Positions 1-41,349 of a DNA stretch of 64,000 nt are shown one piece after another (the first letter of the stretch is position 1; every line of letters starts with the position of its first letter). This DNA comes from Candidatus Pacearchaeota archaeon. Lineage in GTDB: Archaea > Nanobdellota > Nanobdellia > UBA10117 > JABICX01. Under the pieces are notes generated by a model. The model made no database searches, had not been told where the DNA came from, and was given only the letters and a program-made list of their open reading frames with translations. Made by a program: the position numbers and the translations under genes. The stretch spans positions 90,744-154,743 of the forward strand of contig JAFCGM010000004.1 of NCBI GenBank assembly GCA_017608025.1. The letters are read 5' to 3'.

Positions 1-2345
1 CTCTTGCAGCAGCATTTTTTTTCTGGTTTACGCAAATACAAACTCATGGCCAAAACATAGGACTTGCAAATGAAGAAGAATTCATACAGCAAGGAACAAC
101 AACAATTGAAGTTATTGATGAAGTTGTTTACAACTCTCTTGCTGAAAAAAACCCGCTTGAAGATGCATTCATAACTGTTATTCTAAAAAACACAGGTTCA
201 AGAAAAATCAATTTTTCAGAAACAGAAAGCATTCAGCTAATCTTATATACTGAAAATGATGTTTTGTGTATCTCAAACATAACAGGAAACTGCCTTGACT
301 CAGCTTCAAGAACAATTGTTGGAGGAGAAAACAGCAGCATATATTATTCAGAAACATCTTCTTTTGATTCCAGCACAAAAATAAATGATGAAATAATTAC
401 TGCTTTAACAAATTACAATGATTATGTTCTTGCAGGAACAGCAACAAACAGCAGAATATTTCTTTCAAAAGATGGAATTAATTGGAAAGCAAAGCACTCT
501 TTTGGAAAAGGCGAAGTCTCTGAATTCCTAACTAACAGCAGCAGCATATATGGAATAGTTAATTTTGAAAACGGTGACAGCTCACTTGTTCTTTCTGAAG
601 ATTCTGGTTTTTCATGGGAAAAAATTTTCAATTTTTCAGAGGTTCATTTTTATGATTTAGAACTTTTCAACAATCAAATATTTCTTGTAGGAGAAAATGA
701 CACCAACGGAACAATTGTTAATGTTTCTGGAACCTCAAAAACAGAATGGTTTTTTGACAAAAAAATAGCATCAATTGGAAAAGTAAATGAAAAGCTTTAT
801 GCAGGAACTGGCGGAGGAAAAAACAACGGATACTTTTTAGTGTTTGATAGTGGAAATTGGGACAACTCTTACGGACCTTATGACTCAGAAATAACTGAAA
901 TAACTGAATATAAAAATAACATATATTTCTCAACAAAAAAAGAAAACGGAACTGGAAAAGTAAGAATGAACACAACAGGACCTTATTCTTTCAGTGAAAT
1001 AAACGGAATCAGCACAGAAATAAACGAAATCTCAAAAATAAAAGTAATTAACAATACTCTTTATGCAATTTCTTCAAACAACTCAGGAAACTCACATATA
1101 TATTATTTAAGTGGTTTTAGTTTCTACAAAAAAGATGAAATTCCCTTCTCTGTGTTAAATGACATTACTCATCTCAGTGGCTGTGACCAGTCTCTTGTTG
1201 AATGCTCGCAAGGATGTTCTGAAGGAGTTTTAGAGCCAGATGCAGTAAGGGAATTTAAATTTAGAACAGAAAACACAATTTGCGATATCTCAAGCAATGA
1301 ATCTCGCGATTTCAGCATAAAACTAAATATTGGAAAAGATGCGCAAATAATTAATGATTTTGAAAAATATTCTGTTGATGAAAAATTGAAAAACACCCCT
1401 TGCGAACTTTCATGGCCTCTTTGCAATGGAAAAGTATCTAACCCTCTTGCAACCTGTGAAGTTGTCAATGACCATTGCGAAGAAGTATTGCACTATCCTT
1501 GCAATGCCACAGCCTTTTCTGAAGCAAGTTGCTCAGATGCAAATGACGCTTGCCCTGATGGATATTACTGCAATGACACTGGTTCAACCTGTGAATGCGC
1601 GCCACTTAAAACTACTTGCTCGTCCCTGTCACCTCCAGACTGCTACAAAGGAACTTGCTCTGGATACAAAAACTGCACAGAACTTAATGGAGCTTGCGTG
1701 TGCCTTGACTGCTGGGAATCTTATGAAGCAACACCGCGATGCTCAGGAGGATGCTTATTAGGAAACAACTGCAATGAAGGTTCTTTTTCCTGTTATTGTG
1801 GTTCATATACACCACCACCAGATGAAATTTGCAATAATGACTTAGACGATGATTTAGACGGAAATACTGATTGTGCTGATTCTGAATGCACATATGATCC
1901 TGCCTGCTATGAGTATATATGCTATGACTCAATAGATAATGAATATCATTCTGACGGGCTTATAGACTGCAATGATCCTGACTGCAATCTTCAAATATGC
2001 AACCAAACCTGCGACATTGACAATCCAGAACTAATTCCTGACACAATAAACATATCAAAATGCACTCCTGAAAACAACTGTGCTTATTATGAAACACAGG
2101 ATTGCCCGCCAGAAGACCCAAACTGCATAATTGGAAATCCAATTGACAAATGCTCTGGAGAAATTTGCCACAACAATGCAGATGATGATTCAGACAGCTT
2201 TATAGATTGTGCAGACACAGAAGACTGCGAAGATCTTCTTTGCTGGTCTGACTGTAATGAAACAGCAGGAAAGCATGATTATTACTTCTGCTCTGGCGGA
2301 ACTTGCGGAGCAGGACATATTCAATTTGATGACCCTTCTTGCTGA
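1..2345 (+). CDS. Large secreted cysteine-rich surface protein, 5'-truncated by the window edge. The reading frame stays open from nt 3; the ORF-track start at 264 is an internal TTG. N-terminal repeat-rich (beta-propeller-like) region plus a C-terminal ~350 aa with >60 Cys and DDDxDxxxDC acidic motifs.
   Basis: No in-frame stop from nt 3 to 2345. C-terminal Cys-rich patterns (CxC, DCADSEC, DCADTEDC). It lies directly upstream of the pilus operon. Confidence 0.55.
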   Translation, partial: LAAAFFFWFTQIQTHGQNIGLANEEEFIQQGTTTIEVIDEVVYNSLAEKNPLEDAFITVILKNTGSRKINFSETESIQLILYTENDVLCISNITGNCLDSASRTIVGGENSSIYYSETSSFDSSTKINDEIITALTNYNDYVLAGTATNSRIFLSKDGINWKAKHSFGKGEVSEFLTNSSSIYGIVNFENGDSSLVLSEDSGFSWEKIFNFSEVHFYDLELFNNQIFLVGENDTNGTIVNVSGTSKTEWFFDKKIASIGKVNEKLYAGTGGGKNNGYFLVFDSGNWDNSYGPYDSEITEITEYKNNIYFSTKKENGTGKVRMNTTGPYSFSEINGISTEINEISKIKVINNTLYAISSNNSGNSHIYYLSGFSFYKKDEIPFSVLNDITHLSGCDQSLVECSQGCSEGVLEPDAVREFKFRTENTICDISSNESRDFSIKLNIGKDAQIINDFEKYSVDEKLKNTPCELSWPLCNGKVSNPLATCEVVNDHCEEVLHYPCNATAFSEASCSDANDACPDGYYCNDTGSTCECAPLKTTCSSLSPPDCYKGTCSGYKNCTELNGACVCLDCWESYEATPRCSGGCLLGNNCNEGSFSCYCGSYTPPPDEICNNDLDDDLDGNTDCADSECTYDPACYEYICYDSIDNEYHSDGLIDCNDPDCNLQICNQTCDIDNPELIPDTINISKCTPENNCAYYETQDCPPEDPNCIIGNPIDKCSGEICHNNADDDSDSFIDCADTEDCEDLLCWSDCNETAGKHDYYFCSGGTCGAGHIQFDDPSC

Positions 2346-2347
2346 AA

Positions 2348-2941
2348 ATGAAACAAACCGTTAAATCAAAAAAAGCAGCTTCAGAACTAATTGGATTTAT
2401 AGCAATAACAATGATTGCAGTAATTGTAATTGGAACAACTTTTTTCTGGACTCTGCAATTAATTGAAAAAAACAAACGATTCTCAACAGTTGAATATTCT
2501 GAAGAGCTTTCTATAAAAATATCAGAAAAACTTGAAAAAGTTCTTGAGCAAAGATCTCAAGAAAGCATGCGCCTTGAACTAAAGGAAGGGCAAATCCTTT
2601 CAGTTAAAAACAAATCTCTAATTATCTCAAACATGAATGCATTTTCAGATAGTTCCTTGTCTGGAACAAATTATCTCCGCGGGAATGAAGCAATCTGCAC
2701 ATCTGAAAATGTATCTCTCGGTCAGGAAAATATCTGCGTTGTTTCAAAATTCCTAAATCAATTTGAAATTTATTTTATAGACACTTATGACTCTTCAAAT
2801 AACATGCTTTACTCAGTTGAATTTAAGATTGGCAATGTTGGTTCAGCAACAAAAGGAACTCATTATCTAATAATGTCTTACTCTGGTCTTGAAGAATCTG
2901 GAGCAACAACAAAACAAACAATAAAAATAGACATTGAGTAA
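2348..2941 (+). CDS. Pilin-like protein with a class III (type IV prepilin-like) signal peptide.
   Basis: ATG at 2348, 2 nt after the upstream stop. N-terminus MKQTVKSKKAASELIGFIAITMIAVIV: short basic segment followed by a hydrophobic helix. Confidence 0.5.
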   Translation: MKQTVKSKKAASELIGFIAITMIAVIVIGTTFFWTLQLIEKNKRFSTVEYSEELSIKISEKLEKVLEQRSQESMRLELKEGQILSVKNKSLIISNMNAFSDSSLSGTNYLRGNEAICTSENVSLGQENICVVSKFLNQFEIYFIDTYDSSNNMLYSVEFKIGNVGSATKGTHYLIMSYSGLEESGATTKQTIKIDIE

Positions 2942-3191
2942 ATATGTGTTATCGAGCAAGGCGAAAATAGCACTAGCCTGGGTCCCTTGGCTAAAAGGAC
3001 TGCTATACAAATAGATATAGAATAATAAAACAATAATAATGTTTTCCGCGAGCGCTTTTTCCAAAAGGGCTCTGTGGAGTCCCTTAGCTAGAAAGACTGA
3101 AATAATATGTGTTATCGAGCCGAAGGCGAAGATAGCACCTCTGTGTGTCTCTTCAGAAGAAGGACTGCCATAAAAATAGATATAAAATAAA
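2942..3191 (+). repeat. Intergenic composite repeat between two pilin genes. Two ~90-bp sub-repeats (2942-3040 and 3105-3191) bracket a 60-bp core (3041-3100).
   Basis: Sub-repeats atatgtgttatcgagc...ggcgaa(a/g)atagcac...aaggactgc(t/c)ata(c/a)aaatagatata(g/a)aataa. The core tttccgcgagcgctttttccaaaagggctctgtggagtcccttagctagaaagactg is ~90% identical to 53235-53292. GC content is above that of the flanking DNA. Confidence 0.65.
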
Positions 3192-3635
3192 ATGAAAAAA
3201 GCAGCAACAAACATAATATCTTTCGGAGCCTTAACCCTAATTGGCTTACTAGTTGTTAGTATGGTTTTTGTAATTTCTGAAAACATTGTTGAAAATGCAA
3301 ACAAAGAAATATCAAAAGAATTTGCAGAGAATATTTTCCTTCTTGCTGAAAGCAAAATAATTGAAATCGAAACTCTTGTAAACTACTCTCATTCTGGAAA
3401 TGAAATTTCAATAGAAATAAAAGAAAAAATACCTGAAAAGCTTGGAAGAAACTCTTATACAATTCAAGGAAAAAACAACTCTCTTTTATTCAAAACTCAA
3501 AATTATGGATATTCTAAAATAAAAAACATTTCCTGGTCAGACATGAATATTCAAGGAATTTGCTATTCTGGAAACAAAGAAATATCTCTTTCATTTAATT
3601 CCAGCCAATCAAATAAAACAATCACGCTATGCTGA
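3192..3635 (+). CDS. Pilin-like protein with a class III signal peptide.
   Basis: N-terminus MKKAATNIISFGALTLIGLLVV. Confidence 0.5.
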   Translation: MKKAATNIISFGALTLIGLLVVSMVFVISENIVENANKEISKEFAENIFLLAESKIIEIETLVNYSHSGNEISIEIKEKIPEKLGRNSYTIQGKNNSLLFKTQNYGYSKIKNISWSDMNIQGICYSGNKEISLSFNSSQSNKTITLC

Positions 3636-3673
3636 ACTATATGTTTATAAACTAGTTTTGTTTACTTTAAGCT

Positions 3674-5440
3674 ATGGATTTGAGTACTAAAAAAAGGCTC
3701 AGAAATGTTCTCTCAAAAGTCAAGAAAATTTACTCCTCAAAAAAAAGCTTAAAAAACAAAAAAGAGTTAATTGAAGAAAAAAAGCAGGAAATTCCAGAAA
3801 ACCAATACAACTTTGACAGGATTGCCCGCCCAGAAGATTCTTTTGACCTCGATGTTCTTGATGTTGAAAGTGAAGAAAAAAGATTCTCTCTTCCAGACGA
3901 GCTCAACAAACCAGAACTTGTTAAAAGCGAAATCAGAGCTCAAATAAGAAACATAAATGAAACTTATCCAGTGGTTTTCTCTTACCAAAACAACCAAAAA
4001 ATTCCTATTGCAAAGGCAAACATTTTCTATGACCCAAATATCAACAGTATAAGATATAATTTAATTGAGCCTCACTTGACTAAAGAAGAAGAAGAAAAAG
4101 TTTTCAAAACTCTTGAAAAACTAAAAGACAGACTTGATGTAAATCTTGCTGATTTGAAAAACAAAAAAGAAGTTTATGACTATCTTAATTCAAAAATAGA
4201 AGACATTTGGAAAGTTCTTGAAATAAAGGCAACTCTTGAACAGAAAATAAAAATGAAATATTATCTTTTCAGAAACACAATCGGACTTGACAAAATAAAT
4301 GCTTTAATGGAAGACCCAAATATAGAAGATATTTCATGTGATGGAGTTGGACTTCCTGTTTATATCTTTCACAGAAATCCAATGTATGGTGAAATACCCA
4401 CAAACATAATTTTCAATGAAAAGGATGCTCTTGACAGCTTTGTAATGAAGCTTGCTCAAAAATGTCACAGAACAATCTCTGTTGCTTCACCTTTAATGGA
4501 CGGCTCTCTTGAAGACGGCTCTCGTGTGCAAATAACATATGGAACAGATATTGCAAGACGGGGCAGCAATTTCACAATAAGAAAATTCTTCAAAATTCCA
4601 TTAACTCCTGTTGATTTGATAAACCTTAACACCATAGACCCAATGATGCTTGCATATCTCTGGCTTGCAATTGAGAACCAAAAATCAATACTCATTGCTG
4701 GAAGCACAGCAACAGGAAAAACAACATTGCTCAATTCCCTGTCATTGTTTATTGAACCAAATCAGAAAATAGTTTCAATTGAAGACACAGCAGAACTTCG
4801 CTTACCGCATATAAATTGGATGCCTCAAGTAGCAAGAACTGGCTTCGGACCAAAAAAATACGGGGAAATAAGTCTTTACGATCTTTTAAAAGCAGCTCTT
4901 CGTCAGCGTCCAGATTATCTAATTGTAGGAGAAGTAAGGGGCAAGGAAGCTTCTGTGCTTTTTCAGGCAATGGCAACAGGTCATCCTGGACTTTCAACAC
5001 TTCACGCCGACTCAATAAATGCTGTAATTGACCGTCTTACAACAAGACCTATAAACCTTCCTGCAGCAATTCTACAAAACCTTGACATAATTATTTTCAT
5101 AACAAGAGTGAAAAAAGACAACAAAATAACAAGACGAGTTGAAAAGATAATTGAAGTTGAAAATTATGACTTCAGTAAAAACAAGCTTAATGTAAATGAA
5201 GTTTTTGTATGGATTCCCGCTAAAGACAAGTTCATGTCAAAAGAAAGCAGCATCTTAAAGCAAATAGCAGAAATAAATGGATGGTCTGAACAGCAGGTAA
5301 ACAATGAAATTCTTAGAAGAATGCATATCCTAATATGGATGTTAAAGAAAAAAATATATCATTTTGAAGATGTTTCACGAGTAATAAAAATGTACTACAC
5401 AAATCCTGAAAAATTATACGGAATAATGAATAATGGATAG
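3674..5440 (+). CDS. Type IV pilus/archaellum secretion ATPase (FlaI/TadA/VirB11 family).
   Basis: Walker A GSTATGKTTLLNS, Walker B DYLIVGEVRG, 588 aa. Sits in an operon with pilins and platform proteins. Confidence 0.85.
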   Translation: MDLSTKKRLRNVLSKVKKIYSSKKSLKNKKELIEEKKQEIPENQYNFDRIARPEDSFDLDVLDVESEEKRFSLPDELNKPELVKSEIRAQIRNINETYPVVFSYQNNQKIPIAKANIFYDPNINSIRYNLIEPHLTKEEEEKVFKTLEKLKDRLDVNLADLKNKKEVYDYLNSKIEDIWKVLEIKATLEQKIKMKYYLFRNTIGLDKINALMEDPNIEDISCDGVGLPVYIFHRNPMYGEIPTNIIFNEKDALDSFVMKLAQKCHRTISVASPLMDGSLEDGSRVQITYGTDIARRGSNFTIRKFFKIPLTPVDLINLNTIDPMMLAYLWLAIENQKSILIAGSTATGKTTLLNSLSLFIEPNQKIVSIEDTAELRLPHINWMPQVARTGFGPKKYGEISLYDLLKAALRQRPDYLIVGEVRGKEASVLFQAMATGHPGLSTLHADSINAVIDRLTTRPINLPAAILQNLDIIIFITRVKKDNKITRRVEKIIEVENYDFSKNKLNVNEVFVWIPAKDKFMSKESSILKQIAEINGWSEQQVNNEILRRMHILIWMLKKKIYHFEDVSRVIKMYYTNPEKLYGIMNNG

Positions 5441-6305
5441 AGTTTACGATATTTCATTTTCAATTTTCGGTAAGCTTACGCACATACTTGATTCTGTTTT
5501 TCTCCCTTTGAAAAAAAAACTGGTTTCAGCAGGAATGGATGTTGACTACAAAAAATATGCTTCTTTCATAATAATGGTTTTTGTGTTTTTTCTAATTATT
5601 TCATTAATAATTTCATTGTTTTTTATTTTCTTTTTTCTTAAAAACATATCAGAATATGCTCCAATAATTATATTTGGAAACATAATTGTCTCTCTCGGCT
5701 TTGCTTTGTTCGCCTATTACTACCCTTTTCTTGTCTCTAGCGACAGAAAATCAAGAATAGACAACCAGCTCCCTTTTGCTTCTCTTTACTTATCAACAAT
5801 TTCAAAATCAGGTTTCCCTGCCCATGAAATGTTTCGAATGCTTGGAAATTTCAAAAACTACAAAATAATAGCAGAAGAAGCCAAAAAAATAAGCAAGGAC
5901 ATAACTCTTCTTGGATTTGATTTGCCTGAAGCAATCAATCGGGCAATAAAGCGTTCTCCGTCAAAAGAATGGAACGAGCTTTTGTCTGGGATAAGAAATA
6001 CAGTAACTGTTGGTGGAGAGCTTGGAAAATTTTTAGAGGAAAAATCAATTGGTTTTATCCAAGATTACAAGCGCAAATTAAAAAAATTCAGTGAAACTGT
6101 TTCAGTTTTTATGAATGTTTACATAACAGTAATTATTGTTGGCATTGTTTTTTTCATTGTAATTTCCTCTTTGATGAGCACAATCGGAGGAATGTCAGTG
6201 GTTTTAATCAAAACAATGCAAATGGCTGTTGTGTTTTTCGGACTGCCGATTGTAACAGTTGGATTCATACTATTAGTTAAAAGCATGTCACCATGGTCAA
6301 AATAA
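5433..6305 (+). CDS. Type IV pilus platform membrane protein (TadB/FlaJ N-terminal-half-like, T2SSF-type).
   Basis: Polytopic membrane protein overlapping the ATPase gene stop by 8 nt. Its position downstream of the ATPase is typical of FlaJ/TadB. Confidence 0.55.
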   Translation: MDRVYDISFSIFGKLTHILDSVFLPLKKKLVSAGMDVDYKKYASFIIMVFVFFLIISLIISLFFIFFFLKNISEYAPIIIFGNIIVSLGFALFAYYYPFLVSSDRKSRIDNQLPFASLYLSTISKSGFPAHEMFRMLGNFKNYKIIAEEAKKISKDITLLGFDLPEAINRAIKRSPSKEWNELLSGIRNTVTVGGELGKFLEEKSIGFIQDYKRKLKKFSETVSVFMNVYITVIIVGIVFFIVISSLMSTIGGMSVVLIKTMQMAVVFFGLPIVTVGFILLVKSMSPWSK

Positions 6306-7456
6306 AAGAATTTTTGAAAATAAAGGAAATTGGAAAAAACAAAAAAAAGATACTTATCTTTATTCTAAGCATACCTATTCCTTTTCTTCTTTCATTTGCA
6401 GCATATCTTCTGAATGCAGAAACAACAACAATTATTGCAATTGCATCAATAGGAATTATTCTAATTTTCCTTCCTTTCCTAATTATGAGCTTTATTGAAT
6501 TTAAGGAAATATCCAATGCAGAAAAGCATTATCCTGCATTTCTCAGAGACCTTGCACAAAGCGTTTCATCAGGAATGACTCTTCCACAAGCAATTGCTAT
6601 AAGCGCTGAAAACAACTATGGAAAACTTAGCAAATACTTGAAAAAACTTGACATTTACTTGAGCTGGGACTTACCTTTTCCTGAAGCTTGGAATAAATTC
6701 ACAAAACTTCTTGAAAAAAGCAATTTAATTTCTCGCCTTAATAACTTGATTCTTGAAGCATTCACAACTGGCGGCGAACTAAAAACAACTCTAAATTCTC
6801 TTGGCGATGATGTGATTATGCTAAAAGACATGGAAGCTGAGAAAAAAGCAACAATGTATGAGCAAATAATAATAATGTATATTGTCTTTTTCATCTTCCT
6901 TGGAGTAATTGTAGGGCTTTTCAAAATTCTGTCTCCGATTTTGTTTATTCAGAAAATGGGAATTTTCAGTGGAATTGAACTTGGTTCTGCAACTTCAGAA
7001 TCAATTGGAATAAATTACTTCAAAAACCTATTTTTCATGATGGCGCTAATTGAAGGTATTTGCGCAGGATTCATAGCAGGCCAGATTTCAGAAGAAAAGT
7101 TAATTGCAGGATTCAAGCATGTAGTAATTATGGTCGCAGCATCAGTATTATTGTTTTTCATATTTATATTTCCTTCCCACTTGTCCCTTGAAGTATCTTT
7201 ATATCCTCCATCTGTTGAAATTGGAGAATCTGTAATAATTACAGGCTACGCAAGATATGAGACTGAGCCAGTATCAAACAACCCTATTGACATAGTTCTT
7301 CCTGATGGAACAATAAAACGGGAATATACAGACTCAAACGGAAAATTCTCAACAAATATAAAAGCGCCTACGCAAAAGGGAATACATAAAGTAATTGTTA
7401 CACTTACGTATAAAAAAGAAACAGTTCAGTCAGAACTGTCAATTAAAGTCACCTGA
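6293..7456 (+). CDS. Second pilus platform membrane protein (TadC/FlaJ C-terminal-half-like) with a C-terminal extracellular Ig-like/CARDB-like beta-sandwich domain.
   Basis: Multi-TM core. C-terminal ~90 aa soluble beta-rich tail (SVEIGESVIITGYARYETEPVSNNPIDIVLPDGT...). Overlaps the upstream gene by 13 nt. Confidence 0.55.
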   Translation: MVKIKEFLKIKEIGKNKKKILIFILSIPIPFLLSFAAYLLNAETTTIIAIASIGIILIFLPFLIMSFIEFKEISNAEKHYPAFLRDLAQSVSSGMTLPQAIAISAENNYGKLSKYLKKLDIYLSWDLPFPEAWNKFTKLLEKSNLISRLNNLILEAFTTGGELKTTLNSLGDDVIMLKDMEAEKKATMYEQIIIMYIVFFIFLGVIVGLFKILSPILFIQKMGIFSGIELGSATSESIGINYFKNLFFMMALIEGICAGFIAGQISEEKLIAGFKHVVIMVAASVLLFFIFIFPSHLSLEVSLYPPSVEIGESVIITGYARYETEPVSNNPIDIVLPDGTIKREYTDSNGKFSTNIKAPTQKGIHKVIVTLTYKKETVQSELSIKVT

Positions 7457-8286
7457 TGAAAGCGCAGTCAATATATGAATATATAGTAAGTTTTGCAGTT
7501 TTCCTAGTAATGGCTCTTTTCTTGTTTCAATTAATGCTTTCTCTCGGGCCAGAAAGCATTGCTATTTTTGAGAAAAACACTGCTTGCTTGCAGGCAAACC
7601 AAATTTTAGAATACTCTACAGAAAGCCGAAATACTGAAAAAATTAATCTTAATTTTGGAATAAACAAAATAAATTACTCAAAATGGGAAAGCATGTCTGA
7701 AACAGATTATATTGCTTTCAAAAACTCAAATGAAATATTTTTTCCATTCAAGCTCCAATACACAATTAAAGAGCTTCCTCTAAACAAAACAGATACAGAC
7801 ACAGAATATCCAAACGGAACAGCAGCAAAAATAATACGTATGTCAGGAAACCAAATAAAAGTTTATGCAAATGGGTCGGCAAAAGCCACTCTTAAATTGA
7901 TAATTAACACTTTTAATAAGTCCTCATCTGTCAATATTATTGAAAGCGGCTGCAATTCCGGCACTCTTGAAGCAGAGGATTCTGCATCTGCTGAAACTGG
8001 AAAAATGTCAATAACAATGAACTTAAATAAAACAGATTATGACTGCCTGATTTTTTCAGTTGATTCAAATGAAGAATATCTTTACTTTGAAACTCTTGAA
8101 TTCAGTGATTTAAAAGGTGAAAAAATGTTCCCAGTGTTCCTTGAAAACACTTTCAGATTAAACGGCAACTACGGTTCGCAGAACATTGAAAAGAAAAAGC
8201 AATGCAGCAAAGGAAAATATGTTATAATCCAGTCAACTGAAAATGAAAAATTCATTGCTTATATAGAGGCGAAAAGTTGGAATTAA
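7456..8286 (+). CDS. Pilin-like / pilus minor subunit candidate with a class III signal peptide.
   Basis: N-terminus MKAQSIYEYIVSFAVFLVMALFLF. Translationally coupled: ATGA overlap at 7453-7456. Confidence 0.4.
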   Translation: MKAQSIYEYIVSFAVFLVMALFLFQLMLSLGPESIAIFEKNTACLQANQILEYSTESRNTEKINLNFGINKINYSKWESMSETDYIAFKNSNEIFFPFKLQYTIKELPLNKTDTDTEYPNGTAAKIIRMSGNQIKVYANGSAKATLKLIINTFNKSSSVNIIESGCNSGTLEAEDSASAETGKMSITMNLNKTDYDCLIFSVDSNEEYLYFETLEFSDLKGEKMFPVFLENTFRLNGNYGSQNIEKKKQCSKGKYVIIQSTENEKFIAYIEAKSWN

Positions 8287-8687
8287 TAAAATCAAAAAAA
8301 TCTCTTATTTACATAATGGAAACAATGCTTTGTGCAGTGGCTTTTGCGCTTATATTATTCTACTTTTCAAACTCGTTCTCAAGCCTTGAACAAGATACTT
8401 CTGAAATTGATACAGATAGCTTAATATATTCTTTAATTAATACTCGGGAAGTAAATATTTCATCAATTCCCAACATAAAAACAAGTTCAGAAAGAATAAT
8501 GGGTACAAGCTTCGAACTTAAAATGTTTTTTATAAATTCAAGCTGCTACATACTAAACTCCACAGATAGTCTTATTCAGAACTCAAATTGCTCATACTCA
8601 TTCAACACAAACAAAAATGTATTTTCCGGAGAAGCAAAAATAAGCACAGGAGAAACAATAAAAATATTATTTTGGAGGAAAATGTGA
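8277..8687 (+). CDS. Pilin-like protein with a class III signal peptide.
   Basis: N-terminus MELIKSKKSLIYIMETMLCAVAFALILF. Overlaps the upstream gene. Confidence 0.4.
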   Translation: MELIKSKKSLIYIMETMLCAVAFALILFYFSNSFSSLEQDTSEIDTDSLIYSLINTREVNISSIPNIKTSSERIMGTSFELKMFFINSSCYILNSTDSLIQNSNCSYSFNTNKNVFSGEAKISTGETIKILFWRKM

Positions 8688-8933
8688 TGAATAATAATAT
8701 ATTATCGAGGAAACTTATTTTTTGATGAAACTTTTTCAAAAGTTTCCGAAGATAGCGCCAGAAGGAACTTAGTTCCGCCTTGGGCTTTAGCCCTAGCCGA
8801 TTTTGCGGCTGAGTGTGTCCCTTGGCTAAAAGGACTTGAAGGAAAGTGTAATGAAAAATAAGTGACCTTTATAACTAAAATTTGGTCGCTGTCGCACAGT
8901 CCGGGCGAAACGGACAGAGGAAAATGTGATGAA
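8675..8933 (+). mobile_element. 224-bp family element (8693-8916) inserted exactly at an overlapping stop/start junction between two pilin genes. It is flanked by a 17-bp direct duplication (ggaggaaaatgtgatgaa at 8675-8692; gaggaaaatgtgatgaa at 8917-8933).
   Basis: Each copy keeps one gene end intact: copy 1 gives ...KM-TGA for the upstream gene; copy 2 supplies GAGG plus the ATG for the downstream gene. The insert has the tttgatgaaactttttcaaaagtttccg, gaagatagcgcc and gtgtcccttggctaaaaggact motifs plus GC-rich hairpins. Confidence 0.6.
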
Positions 8934-9552
8934 AACAAAATCAAAAAAAGCAGAGTTTTTCATGATAAGCATAGCAATAATACTTCTTTTCATGCTAACT
9001 CTTTTGGGATTTCCAAAAAGCGCTGTGCAATCAACACATTTCTCTGAAATAAACTATAATTCTGAAATAATGAAATTAATTGAAGCAAAAAACTCAGGAA
9101 ACTTCTGGAACTACACTTGGCAAAGCCAAATGAAAATTTCCTCAGCTTCAAATGAAACTGGCCGCCTTAAAATAGAAAATTTTGAAATATCCTCAGGATT
9201 TGCTTGCGAAGAAGACATTGTAGTTCTAAATTCAGCAAAAAGTGAAATAGATTCTGATACTGTTTCTGTTGGAATAGGACTCTGCGATATTGCTTTTGAA
9301 ATTGAACCTAACAAAAAATATTACATAATTTATAACGCATTTTATCCATACACAGCATCTTACAGTCGAGCAATGCCTTCTGGCGAATTTAACAAAACGT
9401 ATACAGAAATTGCAGACAAAACACATAACTTCTGCATATATTCTAAAGAAAGCATAGGCTCAAAAGCAGATTTTAACTGCACAATTCTTGAACAAAATAA
9501 AATTAGTATTTCATATGAATCTCCGAAAATAATGTATTCTGGAGTTATATAA
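8929..9552 (+). CDS. Pilin-like protein with a class III signal peptide.
   Basis: ATG at 8929 preceded by GAGG at 8917-8920 (9 nt upstream). N-terminus MKTKSKKAEFFMISIAIILLFML. The ORF-track start at 8926 is GTG. Confidence 0.45.
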   Translation: MKTKSKKAEFFMISIAIILLFMLTLLGFPKSAVQSTHFSEINYNSEIMKLIEAKNSGNFWNYTWQSQMKISSASNETGRLKIENFEISSGFACEEDIVVLNSAKSEIDSDTVSVGIGLCDIAFEIEPNKKYYIIYNAFYPYTASYSRAMPSGEFNKTYTEIADKTHNFCIYSKESIGSKADFNCTILEQNKISISYESPKIMYSGVI

Positions 9553-9583: not shown

Positions 9584-11743
9584 ATGGACTTTTCCTCATT
9601 TGAAAAAAAAATTCACTCTGCGCTTTTTAAAGAAATAAAAAACCTTTCTCCTAGACCTTGTCAGAAAAAAGCATTAAAGCAAGGTCTTCTTGAAAAAAGC
9701 AATATTCTTGTTTGCAGCCCCACTGCCTCAGGAAAAACTCTTGTAGCTGAAATTGCTGCAATAAACTCAATTCTGAAAACAGGAAAAAAAGCCATTTACA
9801 TCGTCCCTCTAAAAAGCCTTGCATCAGAAAAATACGATGAATTTAAAGAAAAATATGAAAAAATAGGAATTAAAATAGGCATTTCAATCGGAGACCTTGA
9901 CTCAAAAGACCCTTGGCTGAAAAACAAGGACTTAATAATTGCAACATCTGAAAAAATGGATTCTCTAATTCGGCATAATGCATCATGGATTTCCCAAATA
10001 AACATTGCAGTAATTGATGAAATCCATTTAATGAATGATGAATCTCGCGGACCAACTTTAGAAGTGCTAATAACTGCCTTAAAAAAAAGAATAAAAAACA
10101 TTCAGGTAATTTCTTTGTCAGCAACAATTGGAAATCCTCGCGAGCTTGCAGACTGGCTAGATGCAGAGCTTGTCTATGATGAATGGCGTCCTGTAAAGCT
10201 TAGTCAAGCAGTATTTTTTGAAGACAAAATAACTTTGAAAAAGTCTCAGAAAATAAGTCTTGAAAAGGACGAGCTTTTTTCACTTGTAAAGTACTTCAAA
10301 GAAAAGGGTTTGCAAATGCTTGTTTTCTGTCCAACAAAAAAAACAGCAGAATCCTCTGCAGAAAAAGCAAGCGCAATCTTTAACTCAAACCTTGAAGACG
10401 AAAAATCAAAAATACTTTCCGCCCTGCCACAACCAACAAAACAATGCAAAAAACTGGCAAAATGCATTGAAAAAGGGGTAGCTTTTCATCATGCAGGTCT
10501 TGTAAATTCTCAAAAAAAACTAATTGAAAATTCCTTTAGAAAAAGAAAAGTCAAAGCAATTTTTTGCACACCTACTTTAGCAATGGGACTTAATCTTCCA
10601 GCAGACATTGTTATAATGAAATCTTTGAAAAGATTTTCAAAAAGATTTGGAAATGCATGGATTCCTGTGCTTGAATATCATCAAATGACTGGCAGAGCTG
10701 GAAGACCGCAGTCAAAATCAAAAGAAGGCCTCGCAGTATCAATTGCAAAAACAGAAGCAGAAAAGGAAATTATTGAAAAGAAATATATAAATGGAAAACC
10801 TGAACCTATTTTAAGTAAACTTGCAGTAGAGCCTATTTTACGGCAAGTTATTCTTGCCCTTGTAGCAAGCAACATTGTTGCAGACAGAAAAGGCCTTTTG
10901 AAGTTTTTTAAGAGCACTTTTTATGGCTTCCAATTCGGCGATGACTGGACATTTGAAGACAAAATCCTTTCTGTTCTCAAAACCCTGAAGCAGAATTCAT
11001 TTATAAAAGAAAAAAATCATTTGGAAGCGACAAAGCTTGGAAAGCGTGTTTCTCAGCTTTACATTGATCCTGAAACTGCAATAAAAATGATTAATGCATT
11101 GAAAATGGAAAAAGGAAATACTTTTACATTTTTGCAGTTGGTTTGCAACACTCTTGAAATGCGTCCACTTGTTCGAGCAAAAGCAAAAGATTTGGAAAAG
11201 ATAGAAGACCTTATTCTAATGCATAAAGAAAACTTATTGACAAATCTGCCAAATGAATGGGATTATAACTATGATTTTTTCATTGACTCAGTAAAAACCG
11301 CCAATCTTCTTTATGACTGGATTTCAGAAAAATCAGAAGAAGATATAATGCTTTTATATAGAATCCGTCCCGGAGAACTAAAATACAAAATTGATAACAG
11401 TAATTGGCTACTTTATGCAATGAGTGAATTGGCTAAAATAATAAACAAAAAAGATTCATACTCTAAAATAAACAAGCTTAGAATTCGAATTAAGAATGGA
11501 ATAAAAGAGGAACTTTTGCCTCTTGTTAAAATTCGTGGCATCGGCAGATTCAGGGCAAGGCTCCTTTACAACAATGGAATTAGAACAATTTCTGAAATAA
11601 AAAAAGCAGAGCCAGAAAAAATCGCCAGAATAATAAAATCTGTGGCAATTGCAAAAAAAATCAAGCAAGAAGTTGGCCAAAAAATAAAACATATCAATCC
11701 AGTTTCAATAAAAGAAGGGCAAGTAAAATTATCAGATTTCTGA
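9584..11743 (+). CDS. hel308: Hel308/Hjm (Ski2-like) DNA repair helicase.
   Basis: Walker A CSPTASGKT, DEIH box (VIDEIHLM), 719 aa, C-terminal HhH-like domain. Confidence 0.85.
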   Translation: MDFSSFEKKIHSALFKEIKNLSPRPCQKKALKQGLLEKSNILVCSPTASGKTLVAEIAAINSILKTGKKAIYIVPLKSLASEKYDEFKEKYEKIGIKIGISIGDLDSKDPWLKNKDLIIATSEKMDSLIRHNASWISQINIAVIDEIHLMNDESRGPTLEVLITALKKRIKNIQVISLSATIGNPRELADWLDAELVYDEWRPVKLSQAVFFEDKITLKKSQKISLEKDELFSLVKYFKEKGLQMLVFCPTKKTAESSAEKASAIFNSNLEDEKSKILSALPQPTKQCKKLAKCIEKGVAFHHAGLVNSQKKLIENSFRKRKVKAIFCTPTLAMGLNLPADIVIMKSLKRFSKRFGNAWIPVLEYHQMTGRAGRPQSKSKEGLAVSIAKTEAEKEIIEKKYINGKPEPILSKLAVEPILRQVILALVASNIVADRKGLLKFFKSTFYGFQFGDDWTFEDKILSVLKTLKQNSFIKEKNHLEATKLGKRVSQLYIDPETAIKMINALKMEKGNTFTFLQLVCNTLEMRPLVRAKAKDLEKIEDLILMHKENLLTNLPNEWDYNYDFFIDSVKTANLLYDWISEKSEEDIMLLYRIRPGELKYKIDNSNWLLYAMSELAKIINKKDSYSKINKLRIRIKNGIKEELLPLVKIRGIGRFRARLLYNNGIRTISEIKKAEPEKIARIIKSVAIAKKIKQEVGQKIKHINPVSIKEGQVKLSDF

Positions 11744-16207: not shown

Positions 16208-16364
16208 TTTGGGGTTGGAAGACCTTTTCTAAAGGGATTCCTGTGAAAAGTTCCAAGCTAATTTAGGAGATTTCTAATTCAGTGCACAACAATGCAAATG
16301 TTTGTGCGCTAAGCGTGGGTCCCTTCGCTTTAAGGACTTCCAAGCTAATTTAGGAGATTTCTAA
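16177..16364 (+). repeat. Three direct copies of the rnhB 3' end (ttccaagctaatttag[a/g]agatttcta[g/a]) at 16180-16207, 16248-16274 and 16339-16364, separated by two short hairpin elements (16208-16247; 16278-16338).
   Basis: Copy 1 ends in TAG; copies 2 and 3 are identical to each other and end in TAA. Inserts carry the family motifs tttggggttggaagaccttttctaaagggattcc and gtgggtcccttcgctttaaggact. Confidence 0.6.
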
Positions 16365-23782: not shown

Positions 23783-23822
23783 ATACAAAACCTTTTAAGC
23801 ATTTTTACTAATATGAAATATT

Positions 23823-25594: not shown

Positions 25595-25628
25595 AAACAA
25601 TTTTAAAGCTTAAAAAAATAATCTTAAT

Positions 25629-31370: not shown

Positions 31371-31415
31371 ACCAAAACAAAGAACTTATTAATTTATAAG
31401 AATTTATCTATTAAT

Positions 31416-31988: not shown

Positions 31989-31989
31989 T

Positions 31990-35443: not shown

Positions 35444-35557
35444 GTTAAGTATGAAAAAGTAATACCTATTTAAAAAGATTGTTGTTTTTTGGCAGACGAA
35501 AAGCAGATACTTTTATAAAGTAATACTTTTTCATAATATCAATGAAAAATAAATTTA

Positions 35558-35674
35558 GTGTGGAGGTTCTTTTCTAAAGGTTTTCCGCCAGAAACGAACG
35601 TAGTTCGTGCCTATGAAATAGTGCTTTTTCTAAAAGAGCTGTTTGAGGTGAAGACCTTTTCCAAAGGGATTCAA
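35558..35674 (+). repeat. Repeat-family element covering the 5' leader of the next gene.
   Basis: Contains the ~53-nt core shared with 15403-15455 and an end gaggtgaagaccttttccaaagggattcaa. The ORF-track start at 35558 lies inside it. Confidence 0.6.
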
Positions 35675-40473: not shown

Positions 40474-41349
40474 ATGTTCATAATTTACATCTTAACTGCA
40501 ATAGCTGTTATATATACTTTAGTCGGAGCTTACACAGACATACGCTGGCGTATTTTTCCTGACTATTTAAGCTATTCTTTAATTCTTTTCGGCCTCTTTG
40601 GAAATCTTTTCTTGTCAATAGAAACAGGAAATAGTGCTTTTTTCGCAAATTCAGTGCTTTTCCTTATTCTTGCCTTTTCAATTGGATATTTTCTGTCTTA
40701 CTTTGGTTTGTGGGGAATGGGTGATACAAAAATACTGGCTGGTTTTGCTGCGGTTTTTTCAATCTGGCCGTCTTTCCAGTCATTTCCATTATTTCAAGCC
40801 CCATGGCCTTTTGTAGTAACAATTTGGCTTAATGCTGTATTGCTTGCGCCTTTCCTTGCTGTTGCTTTCATGACTTTCCATATAATAAAAAACAGAAAAA
40901 AGCTTCTGATATTAATAAGAAAAAAATTCCAAAAATACAGAAAAGTAACATATATATTTGCAGCTTCTCTCGTGCTTTTTTCAATAATTTATTTTACGAC
41001 TCCTGTGTATGGTTTGTATTTTTTGGTTTTATGGGCGTTTGCAATTCTTTTCACATACTTTTCAATCCTTGCAAAGATAATGGATTCAAATATCTATGAA
41101 CTGAAAAAACCGTCTGAATTAATTGAAGGAGACTATCCTATCGAACTGAAATTAAAAATACCTGGAAAGCTAAAAAAATGGGGTCTTGAAAAAAATCAAA
41201 TAAATTACATAAAAAGTCACACAAAAAAGCAACTTAAAATAAAAAGAGGATTTCCAATGATTGTAGCATATGCATTTTCCTTGTTGATTTCCTTATTTTC
41301 AGGAGACCTTACCTACAAAATAATTTATTCTTTAATTCATATAATTTAA
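40474..41349 (+). CDS. Type IV prepilin/preflagellin peptidase (A24 family, PibD/FlaK-like).
   Basis: Catalytic Asp motifs YTDIRWRIFPD and WGMGDTKIL in a polytopic membrane protein. Confidence 0.65.
   Translation: MFIIYILTAIAVIYTLVGAYTDIRWRIFPDYLSYSLILFGLFGNLFLSIETGNSAFFANSVLFLILAFSIGYFLSYFGLWGMGDTKILAGFAAVFSIWPSFQSFPLFQAPWPFVVTIWLNAVLLAPFLAVAFMTFHIIKNRKKLLILIRKKFQKYRKVTYIFAASLVLFSIIYFTTPVYGLYFLVLWAFAILFTYFSILAKIMDSNIYELKKPSELIEGDYPIELKLKIPGKLKKWGLEKNQINYIKSHTKKQLKIKRGFPMIVAYAFSLLISLFSGDLTYKIIYSLIHII

What the first reader, a model, noticed from the sequence alone, without database searches (positions are those of the whole stretch)
1..9552. Giant cysteine-rich secreted protein directly upstream of a compact type IV pilus operon: candidate host-attachment module
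A protein of more than 780 aa, running off the window edge, has a repeat-rich N-terminal region and a C-terminal ~350 aa containing over 60 cysteines. It has acidic DDDxDGxxDCADSEC-type motifs, similar in appearance to Ca-binding thrombospondin-type-3 or EGF-like repeats. It ends 2 nt before the first of five pilin-like genes. These flank a FlaI/TadA ATPase and two separate platform proteins. A matching prepilin peptidase is encoded at 40474-41349. In small-genome episymbiotic archaea, pili plus large Cys-rich surface proteins are the prime candidates for host-cell contact. The composition and tight linkage here have not been characterised.
Basis: partly seen in the sequence, partly recalled or inferred. 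Interest (0 to 1): 0.6.

Follow-up and report, generated by a model that had tools for sequence, protein, structure and literature searches.

The report
Propeller-bearing cysteine-rich pilin in archaeal pilus operon
The cysteine-rich protein is itself a pilus subunit of a tiny DPANN (Woesearchaeota-like) archaeon, with a seven-bladed propeller inserted into its pilin head and a calcium-binding-type disulfide-rich tail, which makes it a concrete but untested candidate for the part of the pilus that grips a host or a surface.

Summary
The ORF at 3..2345 is followed 2 nt later by a pilus operon, and an A24 prepilin peptidase lies at 40474-41349. Two details are overstated. The full protein is 806 aa (only 26 aa lie off the window), so it is not giant. 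It has 50 cysteines, 44 of them in the last 350 aa, not more than 60.

- It starts with a class III (prepilin-type) signal and a hydrophobic helix.
- Both halves of its globular head are homologous to small archaellin-type pilins (hhalign 99.7% and 99.0%).
- A confidently modelled 7-bladed beta-propeller (aa ~126-418) is inserted between the two halves.
- The C-terminal ~320 aa hold six-Cys modules and three acidic double-disulfide repeats. Their acidic positions match the Ca2+ ligands of the teneurin-4 C-rich domain.

Homologues occur only as unnamed hypothetical proteins; the few with a source name are from Woesearchaeota MAGs. Pilin-like genes lie next to them in six of seven other lineages. 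Three lineages carry the same ATPase/platform arrangement, two of them through to Hel308.

Best reading: an archaeal modular minor pilin that displays a ligand-binding head on an adhesion-type type IV pilus. It is not an archaellum component, because no ArlH is present. The adhesin role and a tip position are inferred. I rate it a new variant of a known kind.

The parts
3..2345 (+). Cys-rich propeller pilin. This is codons 27-806 plus the stop of the 806-aa protein P0001; the first 26 codons lie upstream of the window.
   Evidence: Translation. A 100% identical full-length protein of 806 aa was found. The full N-terminus MLQRNSKNKA|VQSIIAVLLLTLLLISLAAAFFFWF is class III signal-like and gives a sub-threshold UpsB pilin hit.
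3..299 (+). Pilin module, N-terminal half (aa 27-125 seen here): the rest of the alpha1 helix and the first beta strands, with conserved C115.
   Evidence: hhalign of small archaellin-type pilins (A4) against the family (A1): probability 99.7%, E 2.6e-25, covering aa 3-122. The AF2 model has a helix at 9-57.
300..1178 (+). Seven-bladed beta-propeller (aa ~126-418) inserted in the pilin head. It is a degenerate BNR/Asp-box type, with SKDGINW and SEDSGFSW motifs.
1179..1379 (+). Pilin module, C-terminal half (aa ~419-485) with conserved C427, C431 and C453.
   Evidence: hhalign of the C-terminal half of the small pilins against aa 405-500 of the family: probability 99.0%, E 8.7e-18. Invariant cysteines are listed.
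1380..1820 (+). Disulfide-rich region (aa 486-632, 22 Cys) built of short six-Cys modules ending in CxC.
   Evidence: Cysteine positions and counts. The first ~90 aa of this region are conserved in the shorter family members. The AF2 model is low-confidence here.
1821..2228 (+). Region holding three acidic double-disulfide repeats (aa 633-655, 663-687, 745-768) with predicted Ca2+-binding loops.
   Evidence: NCBIfam NF033662: 3 stretches, E 1.3e-8, 34.5 bits (cut-off 41). Teneurin-4 C-rich domain 7plp_A: E 0.022. Ca-ligand positions are conserved in repeats 1 and 3 by fixed offset (NDDDDDDE). Repeat 2, which has a 2-residue insertion, matches them in the phmmer alignment. Three Ca2+ sites are described in PMC9058538.
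2348..2941 (+). pil1, a pilin-like protein of 197 aa.
   Evidence: Class III-like N-terminus. The profile of its orthologues against small archaellin-type pilins gives probability 95.4%, E 1.8e-8 over 87 columns. Orthologues follow the propeller pilin in L001, L009, L006, L002 and L020.
3192..3635 (+). pil2, a pilin-like protein of 147 aa.
   Evidence: Class III-like N-terminus. Weak DUF7266 hit, E 0.0013, below cut-off. Orthologues occupy the same position in L009, L006 and L020.
3674..5440 (+). Pilus assembly ATPase (PilB/FlaI superfamily), 588 aa.
   Evidence: Pfam T2SSE E 2.4e-35; PilB3_C 28.1 bits against a cut-off of 27. The best NCBIfam match is FlaI at 420.5 bits, below the cut-off of 550.
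5433..6305 (+). Platform protein, N-terminal-half equivalent of FlaJ/TadC.
   Evidence: Pfam T2SSF E 2.4e-14. It matches ArlJ model positions 5-248 of 555.
6293..7456 (+). Platform protein, C-terminal-half equivalent of FlaJ/TadC, with a ~100-aa beta-rich C-terminal extension.
   Evidence: Pfam T2SSF E 3.3e-14. It matches ArlJ model positions 181-436 of 465.
7456..8286 (+). pil3, a pilin-like protein of 276 aa (MKAQ|SIYEY...).
   Evidence: Class III-like N-terminus and a single N-terminal hydrophobic helix. The L006 orthologue starts MRKAQSSVEF. No homology beyond the N-terminus was detected.
8277..8687 (+). pil4, a pilin-like protein of 136 aa with a TTG start that overlaps pil3.
   Evidence: N-terminus KSKKS|LIYIMETML. 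Orthologues in L006 and L020 have KKG/KRG|YAYW. The start codon is uncertain.
8929..9552 (+). pil5, a pilin-like protein of 207 aa.
   Evidence: N-terminus MKTKSKKA|EFFMISIAI. The L006 orthologue (500 aa, MNNRGQ|FFIISIV) carries Cu-binding_MopE Cys/acidic repeats, E 1.3e-13.
40474..41349 (+). Prepilin/preflagellin peptidase (A24 family), the presumed processing enzyme for all six pilin-like proteins.
   Evidence: Pfam Peptidase_A24 32.7 bits, above the 26.5 cut-off. FlaK_Arch E 7e-12, below cut-off. D22 and G81-M-G-D84 are present.

Best explanation
The ORF at 3..2345 encodes a modular minor pilin of an adhesion-type archaeal type IV pilus in a Woesearchaeota-like DPANN archaeon.

**Shown here**
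- The 806-aa protein has a prepilin-type leader and hydrophobic helix.
- It has an archaellin-type pilin head split into two halves.
- A 7-bladed beta-propeller is inserted between the two halves.
- A ~320-aa disulfide-rich C-terminal extension follows, with three acidic repeats of a Ca2+-binding type.
- The gene sits in a conserved operon with five further pilin-like genes, a PilB/FlaI-type ATPase and a FlaJ/TadC platform split into two genes.
- An A24 peptidase is encoded 31 kb away.

**Inferred mechanism**
1. The precursor inserts into the membrane.
2. The A24 peptidase removes the ~10-residue leader, after K9-A10.
3. The ATPase and platform extract pilins from the membrane and polymerise them through their N-terminal helices. 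The filament body would be built from small archaellin-type pilins, which in relatives are encoded just upstream and here lie off the window.
4. The bulky propeller pilin enters through its intact pilin module in low copy. It is most plausibly at the tip, together with some of pil1-pil5 as a priming or tip complex.
5. There it presents the propeller and a Ca2+-stiffened, disulfide-locked stalk as the ligand-binding end that contacts a host cell or another surface.
For: **The protein is a pilin**
- Full-length sequence and N-terminus.
- The same N-terminal motif, M..NKKG|VxTIISxLL...YFWF..IQ, occurs in every family member.
- Pilin-head homology in both halves.
- The small pilins used for that comparison pass the curated models: PF01917 at 36.4 and 33.1 bits against 29.5, and TIGR02537 at 31-39 bits against 20.

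**The extra modules**
- Acidic repeats and their Ca-ligand pattern.

**The operon**
- Machinery genes.
- Peptidase.
- Synteny is conserved. L009 (Ca. Woesearchaeota, ATPase 68% identical) has three small pilins, the Cys-rich propeller pilin, pil1, pil2, the ATPase and the first platform gene.
- L006-8 and L020 have the complete order through to Hel308.
- L002-4, L005 and the P0019 locus have neighbouring pilins.

**Consistent with ligand-facing modules**
- Between the two full-length orthologues, the pilin halves are about 50% identical. The propeller is 32% and the Cys-rich tail 37%.
- The C-terminal extension is absent, short, or replaced by other Cys repeats in other lineages.
- In L006 a Cys/acidic MopE-type module sits on the pil5 orthologue instead.

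**Precedent**
- Bacterial modular pilins are tip-exposed adhesins, and GspK has a domain inserted in the pilin beta-sheet (PMC8179133).
Against: - P0001 itself does not reach any curated pilin or archaellin model. It gives only a UpsB hit of 20.3 bits against a cut-off of 70. The pilin assignment rests on profile-profile comparison and on the N-terminal pattern.
- The +2 residue after the proposed cleavage site (Q) is less typical than in relatives, which have KKG|V/I-T.
- No small major pilin gene is visible in the window. The upstream DNA of this contig could not be retrieved.
- In two lineages (P0008, P0019) the propeller pilin and its neighbouring pilins lack an adjacent ATPase and platform.
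- The C-terminal 270 aa are modelled with pLDDT below 50, so Ca2+ binding and the disulfide pattern are predictions from sequence only.
- The propeller fold is generic: lectins, lactonases, BtuG and S-layer YVTN domains score alike. It therefore gives no ligand.
- Nothing tests filament incorporation, tip position, binding, or that this organism is an episymbiont.
Confidence: 0.6

Rival explanations
1. Bindosome-like surface display. The class III signal only targets and anchors the protein. It would sit on the cell surface, or in a short pseudopilus, as a substrate-binding or glycan-processing propeller protein for nutrient capture. Sulfolobus sugar-binding proteins are assembled this way by the Bas system. 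On this reading it is not a subunit of an extended adhesive pilus.
For: - The second-best NCBIfam match of the ATPase is bindosome BasE, and BasF matches the first platform gene weakly.
- The protein is very bulky for a filament subunit.
- The propeller belongs to the BNR/Sortilin-like sequence neighbourhood, which is rich in secreted glycan-binding or hydrolytic proteins.
Against: - Homology to pilins extends through the whole globular head, in both halves, not just the signal and helix. Bindosome substrates share only the N-terminus (established knowledge).
- Several small archaellin-type pilins and five more pilin-like genes accompany it.
- The ATPase scores far better against FlaI (420 bits) than against BasE (228 bits), and it carries a PilB3_C domain.
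- No catalytic family model matches the propeller.
Confidence: 0.17
2. The locus is a reduced archaellum (swimming organelle), and the Cys-rich protein is a specialised archaellin or cap.
For: - Small pilins of relatives pass Pfam Arch_flagellin.
- The best curated matches of the ATPase and platform are FlaI (E 1e-125) and ArlJ.
- Weak ArlF and ArlG similarities appear in the small pilins.
Against: - FlaI and ArlJ scores are below the equivalog cut-offs: 420 against 550, and 100 against 550.
- No ArlH is present in the operon or elsewhere in the window.
- The only KaiC-like gene (18158-18913) scores 52 bits against the ArlH cut-off of 215, and matches generic KaiC families better.
- No ArlC/D/E/X was found.
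- ArlF and ArlG hits are about 20 bits against a cut-off of 110.
- The platform is split into two tadC-like genes. That is described for euryarchaeal non-archaellum T4P, whereas all archaella carry seven components including FlaH (PMC4858521).
Confidence: 0.07
3. The protein is a pilus subunit, but the pilus serves something other than host-cell contact. Possibilities are attachment to mineral or organic surfaces and biofilm formation, DNA uptake, or cell-cell aggregation among conspecifics. The Cys-rich tail would be only a stabilising stalk.
For: - Archaeal T4P of the PilB3/PilC3 and Epd kind mediate adhesion to abiotic surfaces (background cited in PMC4858521).
- Nothing in the sequence specifies a host ligand.
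- The locus sits in a conserved core-genome neighbourhood of thermosome, Hel308, SecDF and AglB, not in a variable island.
Against: - Lineage-specific swapping of C-terminal Cys-rich modules, and faster divergence of the propeller, fit partner-specific recognition better than generic stickiness. This evidence is indirect.
- A relative's 788-kb contig points to small genomes in the clade, and all cultivated DPANN are host-dependent ectosymbionts (PMC11291902 abstract). Both make host contact the most obvious need.
Confidence: 0.16

Closest known systems
Bacterial modular type IV pilins (Streptococcus sanguinis PilB with a vWA module and PilC with a lectin module; also CofB and GspK)
   Same: - A small pilin module carries a bulky functional module that the filament presents, most likely at its tip.
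- In PilB, metal binding contributes to adhesion.
- GspK even has its extra domain inserted into the pilin beta-sheet (PMC8179133).
   Different: - This pilin is archaeal, with an archaellin-type module rather than the bacterial IPR012902 type.
- The module is a 7-bladed propeller inserted inside the head, and a second disulfide-rich module is added at the C-terminus.
- The survey in that paper covered bacteria only; the word 'archaea' does not occur in it.
- No sequence homology to PilB, PilC or GspK was found or tested.
Euryarchaeal-type adhesion pili (Haloferax volcanii PilA1-6/PilB3/PilC3; Methanococcus maripaludis Epd pili with two TadC-like genes)
   Same: - An ATPase of the T2SSE family with a PilB3_C domain.
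- Two tadC-like platform genes in the locus, a stated feature of euryarchaeal clade 1/2 systems (PMC4858521).
- Several class III-signal pilins processed by an A24 peptidase.
- No FlaH.
   Different: - The structural pilins here are of the archaellin-like (PF01917/TIGR02537) kind.
- The machinery's closest curated models are FlaI and ArlJ.
- None of the characterised systems has a propeller-bearing or Cys-rich pilin.
PilY1/PilC tip adhesins of bacterial type IVa pili
   Same: Functional analogy only: a beta-propeller plus Ca2+-binding sites presented at the pilus tip together with a set of minor pilins (PMC8179133 discussion; PMC7541494 abstract).
   Different: - PilY1 is not a pilin and docks onto minor pilins.
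- Here the propeller is part of a pilin.
- No PilY1/Neisseria_PilC Pfam hit appeared in the Pfam scan.
Teneurin C-rich domain, NCBIfam 'acidic double-disulfide repeat' (NF033662) and MopE-type 'putative metal-binding motif' (PF11617)
   Same: - Short acidic loops locked by disulfides.
- P0001 repeat 2 aligns to teneurin-4 residues that bind three Ca2+ ions.
- In repeats 1 and 3, the eight ligand positions read NDDDDDDE.
- The repeat is common: most of the 596 proteins with E<=0.001 in the exhaustive search match only aa ~625-700.
- The pil5 orthologue in L006 carries PF11617.
   Different: - P0001 scores below the NF033662 cut-off (34.5 against 41) and has no PF11617 hit.
- It has four cysteines per repeat rather than the six of the teneurin domain.
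- Ca2+ binding is not demonstrated.
Archaellum (ArlB, ArlF, ArlG, ArlH, ArlI, ArlJ, ArlC/D/E or ArlX)
   Same: The pilin N-terminal domain and head are archaellin-like. ArlI and ArlJ are the closest curated models for the motor genes.
   Different: - No ArlH, ArlF/G or ArlC/D/E/X.
- The platform is split in two.
- Five extra pilin-like genes are present.

Membership tests
Archaeal type IV pilin / archaellin superfamily (class III signal peptide proteins) | A short positively charged leader ending in [KR]-[GA], followed at once by a ~20-residue hydrophobic helix at the extreme N-terminus. | tested here: met
   P0001 starts MLQRNSKNKA|VQSIIAVLLLTLLLISLAAAFFFWF and has a single hydrophobic segment at the N-terminus only. 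The same pattern occurs in all family members.
Archaeal type IV pilin / archaellin superfamily (class III signal peptide proteins) | A match to a curated pilin or archaellin model (TIGR02537, PF01917) above its cut-off. | tested here: not met
   P0001 gives no PF01917 or TIGR02537 hit at E<=0.1, only UpsB at 20.3 bits against 70. The homologue P0017 reaches TIGR02537 at 18.1 bits against 20. P0015 has a precomputed weak PF01917 hit.
Archaeal type IV pilin / archaellin superfamily (class III signal peptide proteins) | Homology of the globular head to bona fide family members. | tested here: met
   hhalign against small pilins that pass PF01917 and TIGR02537: N-terminal half 99.7% (E 2.6e-25), C-terminal half 99.0% (E 8.7e-18).
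Archaeal type IV pilin / archaellin superfamily (class III signal peptide proteins) | A cognate A24 prepilin peptidase in the genome, and actual cleavage by it. | tested here: inconclusive
   The peptidase gene is present with both catalytic Asp motifs. Cleavage itself cannot be tested with these tools.
Archaeal type IV pilin / archaellin superfamily (class III signal peptide proteins) | Incorporation into a filament assembled by a PilB/FlaI ATPase and a TadC/FlaJ platform. | not testable with these tools
   Only conserved operon linkage is shown.
Modular pilins (sensu Raynaud et al. 2021) | An N-terminal pilin module plus at least one additional module not specific to pilus biology. | tested here: met
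   The architecture is a pilin module, a 7-bladed propeller and a Cys-rich/acidic repeat region. The definition is taken from PMC8179133. That definition used the bacterial IPR012902 signature, which was not tested here.
Archaellum | Presence of ArlH (FlaH) with ArlI and ArlJ in the locus. | tested here: not met
   There is no such gene between pil2 and the ATPase, or elsewhere in the operon. The KaiC-like gene at 18158-18913 scores 52 bits against the ArlH cut-off of 215. The requirement is stated in PMC4858521. The rest of the genome was not seen.
Archaellum | ArlF, ArlG and ArlC/D/E or ArlX components; ArlI and ArlJ at equivalog level. | tested here: not met
   pil1 and pil2 give no ArlF or ArlG hit at E<=0.1. 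The ATPase scores 420.5 against 550, and the platform genes 100 and 46 against 550 and 400.
Euryarchaeal-type (Epd / PilB3-PilC3-like) type IV pilus locus | A T2SSE ATPase plus TadC-like platform genes (often two) plus class III-signal pilins, without FlaH. | tested here: met
   T2SSE, PilB3_C (28.1 bits against 27) and two T2SSF genes; pilin-like genes. The 'two tadC' feature is quoted from PMC4858521. Placement of the ATPase in a phylogenetic clade was not done.
Acidic double-disulfide repeat (NCBIfam NF033662) | A match to the repeat model above its cut-off. | tested here: inconclusive
   P0001 has 3 stretches, E 1.3e-8, 34.5 bits against a cut-off of 41. P0002 scores 39.7 bits.
Teneurin C-rich-type Ca2+-binding loop (TSP type 3-like coordination) | Acidic residues at the Ca-ligand positions between the flanking cysteines. 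| tested here: met
   Positions C+2, 5, 6, 7, 9, 13, 16 and 18 read NDDDDDDE in repeats 1 and 3, against DDNDDDDD in teneurin-4. Repeat 2 aligns directly to 7plp_A, E 0.022. The ligand list comes from PMC9058538. Metal binding itself is not testable here.
   No Pfam family matches P0001 or P0002 at E<=0.1 or E<=0.05 respectively.
BNR/Asp-box beta-propellers (Sortilin-Vps10, PSII_BNR/Ycf48-like) | A beta-propeller fold with recurring SxDxGxxW Asp-boxes, and a match to the Pfam models. | tested here: inconclusive

The most novel reading that the evidence does not exclude
Woesearchaeota carry a previously undescribed class of archaeal tip adhesin. In it the receptor-binding propeller is grafted inside the pilin fold. 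Disulfide-locked Ca2+-binding modules are exchanged between different pilin subunits of the same operon. They sit on the propeller pilin here and in L009, on the pil5 orthologue in L006, and as a different Cys-repeat array in P0010. Together these would act as a swappable host-range cassette that determines which partner cell an episymbiotic DPANN archaeon can dock to.
Probability: 0.25. Interest if true: 0.8.

Novelty: new variant of a known kind. Interest (0 to 1): 0.55.

Why it matters
How DPANN archaea recognise and hold their hosts is an open question. Pili are suspected, but I found no named, testable adhesin described for them.

This family gives a defined target: an 806-aa pilin with a propeller head and a Ca2+-type stalk, in a conserved operon. 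It could be expressed, tested for Ca2+ and ligand binding, used to raise antibodies for cryo-ET or immunogold in enrichments, and tracked for diversifying selection in metagenomes.

For pilus biology it would extend the 'modular pilin' principle from bacteria to archaea. It would also add a new topology, with a whole propeller inserted into the pilin head.

If it is only a surface-anchored binding protein, it is still an unannotated family that is currently labelled 'hypothetical protein'.

Full report
**1. What is in the sequence**

Frame 3 of the + strand is open from the window edge to a TGA at 2343-2345, giving 780 codons. A 100% identical full-length protein exists in the public protein collection. 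It is P0001, 806 aa, from a 193-kb NCBI contig. Only 26 residues are therefore missing, and the protein is not 'giant'.

It contains 50 cysteines, 44 of them in the last 350 residues. The enrichment is still extreme: 12.6% Cys against 0.78% in 46 other genes of the window.

The next gene starts at ATG 2348, two bases after the stop. The downstream genes are:

| Coordinates | Gene | Evidence |
|---|---|---|
| 2348-2941 | pil1 | class III-like N-terminus |
| 3192-3635 | pil2 | class III-like N-terminus |
| 3674-5440 | ATPase | T2SSE E 2.4e-35; PilB3_C above cut-off |
| 5433-6305 | platform gene 1 | T2SSF; matches the N-terminal part of ArlJ/FlaJ models |
| 6293-7456 | platform gene 2 | T2SSF; matches the C-terminal part of ArlJ/FlaJ models |
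| 7456-8286 | pil3 | class III-like N-terminus |
| 8277-8687 | pil4 | class III-like N-terminus |
| 8929-9552 | pil5 | class III-like N-terminus |

The platform is thus split into two genes. All five pil genes begin with a short K/R-rich leader and a single hydrophobic helix. The gene at 40474-41349 passes the Pfam Peptidase_A24 cut-off and has D22 and GMGD81-84. The window is archaeal: it encodes Hel308, Hef, LonB, AglB/STT3 and RadA. The closest genomes by the ATPase are Ca. Woesearchaeota MAGs, at 68% and 56% identity.

**2. The Cys-rich protein is itself a pilin**

The full N-terminus is MLQRNSKNKA|VQSIIAVLLLTLLLISLAAAFFFWF. It is the only hydrophobic segment of the protein. NCBIfam gives a sub-threshold hit of residues 9-65 to the UpsB pilin.

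An exhaustive HMMER search of 1.84 billion representatives found one full-length orthologue, P0002 (816 aa, 41% identity). It also found seven shorter or differently extended relatives: P0008, P0010, P0015, P0017, P0019, P0022 and the fragment P0064. All of them align from their own N-termini, with the motif M..NKKG|VxTIISxLL...YFWF..IQ. P0022 starts inside the helix.

In relatives the genes just upstream are small pilins of 160-185 aa. Several pass a curated model. Two L009 pilins reach Pfam Arch_flagellin (36.4 and 33.1 bits against 29.5). TIGR02537 is reached at 31-39 bits against 20 in L009 and L006 pilins.

Profile-profile comparison of these small pilins with the family gave two separate matches:
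- Residues 3-122 of P0001: probability 99.7%, E 2.6e-25.
- Residues ~425-483 of P0001: probability 99.0%, E 8.7e-18.

The four cysteines conserved in the small pilins correspond to C115, C427, C431 and C453.

The pilin head is therefore complete but interrupted. Residues ~126-418 are an insertion. AlphaFold2, run on a 9-sequence alignment, models:
- a long N-terminal helix (9-57);
- beta strands on both sides of the insertion;
- 28 strands, or seven four-stranded blades, between 129 and 417, at pLDDT mostly 80-90.

**3. The C-terminal region**

Residues 486-632 hold 22 cysteines in short six-Cys modules. Residues 633-768 hold three acidic repeats, starting at C636, C666 and C748.

- NCBIfam recognises the acidic repeats as 'acidic double-disulfide repeat', with 3 stretches at E 1.3e-8. 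The summed score of 34.5 bits is below the cut-off of 41.
- The only solved structure hit is the teneurin-4 C-rich domain, 7plp_A, E 0.022.
- That domain binds three Ca2+ ions through eight acidic residues. Two of the sites are coordinated as in thrombospondin type 3 repeats (PMC9058538).
- At the equivalent positions, repeats 1 and 3 read NDDDDDDE, against DDNDDDDD in teneurin-4.

Membership in TSP3 or EGF Pfam families was tested and not met. The AF2 model is unreliable here, with pLDDT below 50.

**4. Context in relatives**

| Locus | Family member | Gene order found |
|---|---|---|
| L009 (Ca. Woesearchaeota MAG) | P0002-like | thermosome, coiled-coil protein, three small pilins, Cys-rich propeller pilin, pil1, pil2, ATPase, platform gene 1 (contig ends) |
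| L001 | P0002 | pilin, propeller pilin, pil1 |
| L006-8 | P0017 | small pilins, propeller pilin, pil1, pil2, ATPase, two T2SSF genes, three small genes, Hel308 |
| L020 | P0015 | one partial upstream gene (155 aa, not identified), then the same order from the propeller pilin to Hel308 |
| L002-4 and the P0019 locus | P0008, P0019 | pilins, propeller pilin, pil1-like gene, then Hel308 directly (no ATPase or platform) |
| L005 | P0010 | two archaellin-type pilins upstream |

The order in L006-8 and L020 is the order seen in the window. The flanking genes (thermosome, Hel308, methyltransferase, SecDF, SpoIIM, STT3) are also shared. This is a core chromosomal locus, not an island.

All named members are 'hypothetical protein [Candidatus Woesearchaeota archaeon]'.

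**5. Variation**

Between P0001 and its orthologue, the pilin halves are ~50% identical. The propeller is 32% and the Cys-rich tail 37%.

The C-terminal extension takes several forms across the family:
- missing in P0022;
- short, ~70-90 aa with two Cys modules, in P0008, P0015, P0017 and P0019;
- long with acidic repeats in P0001 and P0002;
- a ~600-aa array of a different Cys repeat in P0010.

In L006 a Cys/acidic module (PF11617, E 1.3e-13) sits on the pil5 orthologue instead. These modules move between subunits of the same operon.

**6. Pilus or archaellum**

The best curated matches of the motor genes are FlaI and ArlJ, but both are below the equivalog cut-offs. The operon has no ArlH. 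The only KaiC-like gene in the window (18158-18913) scores 52 bits against an ArlH cut-off of 215, and fits generic archaeal KaiC families better. No ArlF, ArlG, ArlC/D/E or ArlX was detected.

Makarova et al. state two relevant points (PMC4858521):
- All archaella carry seven components, including FlaH.
- Two tadC-like genes are typical of euryarchaeal non-archaellum systems.

I therefore file the locus as an adhesion-type T4P built with archaellin-like pilins.

**7. Mechanism**

Shown here:
- the domain architecture;
- homology of the head to pilins;
- the presence of the machinery and the peptidase;
- conserved operon membership.

Inferred:
- cleavage after A10;
- assembly of a filament from the small pilins, which here lie off the window;
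- low-copy, probably tip, incorporation of the propeller pilin with some of pil1-5;
- display of the propeller and a Ca2+-stabilised disulfide stalk as the ligand-binding end.

Among the pil genes, pil1 is homologous to the small pilins (probability 95.4%). pil3-5 are pilin-like by N-terminus only.

The precedent is the bacterial modular pilin concept. It includes GspK, which has a domain inserted in the pilin sheet, and PilY1 as a propeller plus Ca2+ tip adhesin (PMC8179133). Host attachment is plausible for a DPANN archaeon but is untested.

The rivals are a bindosome-like surface display, a non-host adhesion role, and an archaellum. They are scored in the rivals section.

**8. Verdict**

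The linkage is real, but the protein is a pilin, not a separate secreted giant.
- Novelty: a new variant of a known kind. It is an archaeal modular pilin with an inserted propeller and shuffling Ca-type Cys modules, and I could find no description of it.
- Interest is moderate to good. It turns 'pili probably mediate DPANN host contact' into a specific protein that can be tested.

Noticed in passing
window 2944-3190, 8760-8842, 16285-16345, 53232-53368: A repeated intergenic element occurs six times, all on the + strand (0 expected by chance). It has a variable 8-12 bp hairpin followed by a conserved GTCCCTTGGCTA(A/G)AAGGACT. Two to three copies fill the 250-nt gap between pil1 and pil2, and one lies in the 238-nt gap before pil5. 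In L009 and L006 the corresponding genes abut or overlap, so the elements look like insertions into the operon. There is no Rfam match, and folding z-scores are mixed (-2.9 to +1.1). Possible identities are a small RNA, a protein-binding site or a miniature mobile repeat.
   Followed up: partly
window 18158-18913 (-): A single-domain KaiC-like ATPase of 251 aa (Pfam KaiC, 198.6 bits) lies 8.6 kb from the pilus operon. It is not ArlH by NCBIfam (52 bits against 215). Makarova et al. 2016 report that KaiC-family ATPases are often associated with archaeal T4P loci, so a regulatory link is possible.
   Followed up: partly
window 6293-7456 (+), last ~100 codons: The second platform (T2SSF) protein has a beta-rich C-terminal extension of ~100 aa after its last membrane segment (…VSLYPPSVEIGESVIITGYARYETEP…KVIVTLTYKKETVQSELSIKVT). 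It looks like an Ig or carboxypeptidase-regulatory-like domain but has no Pfam match. The L006 and L020 orthologues are similarly long (410 and 403 aa).
   Followed up: no
window 21206-37886: An AglB/STT3 oligosaccharyltransferase (21206-23782) is followed by a cluster of polysaccharide and nucleotide-sugar genes (Polysacc_synt at 26701-27978 and 36375-37886; NTP_transferase at 35558-36409). The window-encoded part of the propeller pilin has 19 N-x-S/T sequons in 780 aa, so it is probably N-glycosylated.
   Followed up: no
L006 18085-19587; P0010 aa ~560-1144: Other Cys-rich modules ride on pilin-like proteins of the same operon type. The pil5 orthologue in L006 (500 aa, 32 Cys) has MopE-type CxxxDDDCDGxxDE repeats. 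P0010 has a ~600-aa array of a different repeat (…C..CGG.GYS.DG..CY.D..C…).
   Followed up: partly
L020 8922-12157: The Hel308 helicase next to the operon in this relative carries an intein with a LAGLIDADG endonuclease (precomputed Pfam Intein_splicing and LAGLIDADG_3). The window's Hel308 (9584-11743, 719 aa) does not.
   Followed up: no
L010 (CAJWSY010000052.1): A contig binned as 'uncultured Chloroflexi bacterium' encodes a pil1-like gene and an ATPase 56% identical to the window's archaeal ATPase. This is probably a mis-binned Woesearchaeota contig.
   Followed up: no
L009 4494-4967; L006 8440-8868; L002 7894-8367: A conserved 142-157 aa coiled-coil protein lies between the thermosome gene and the first small pilin in relatives. 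It has no family match beyond generic coiled-coil hits. It may be a cytoplasmic component or regulator of the pilus system, and it would lie upstream of this window.
   Followed up: partly
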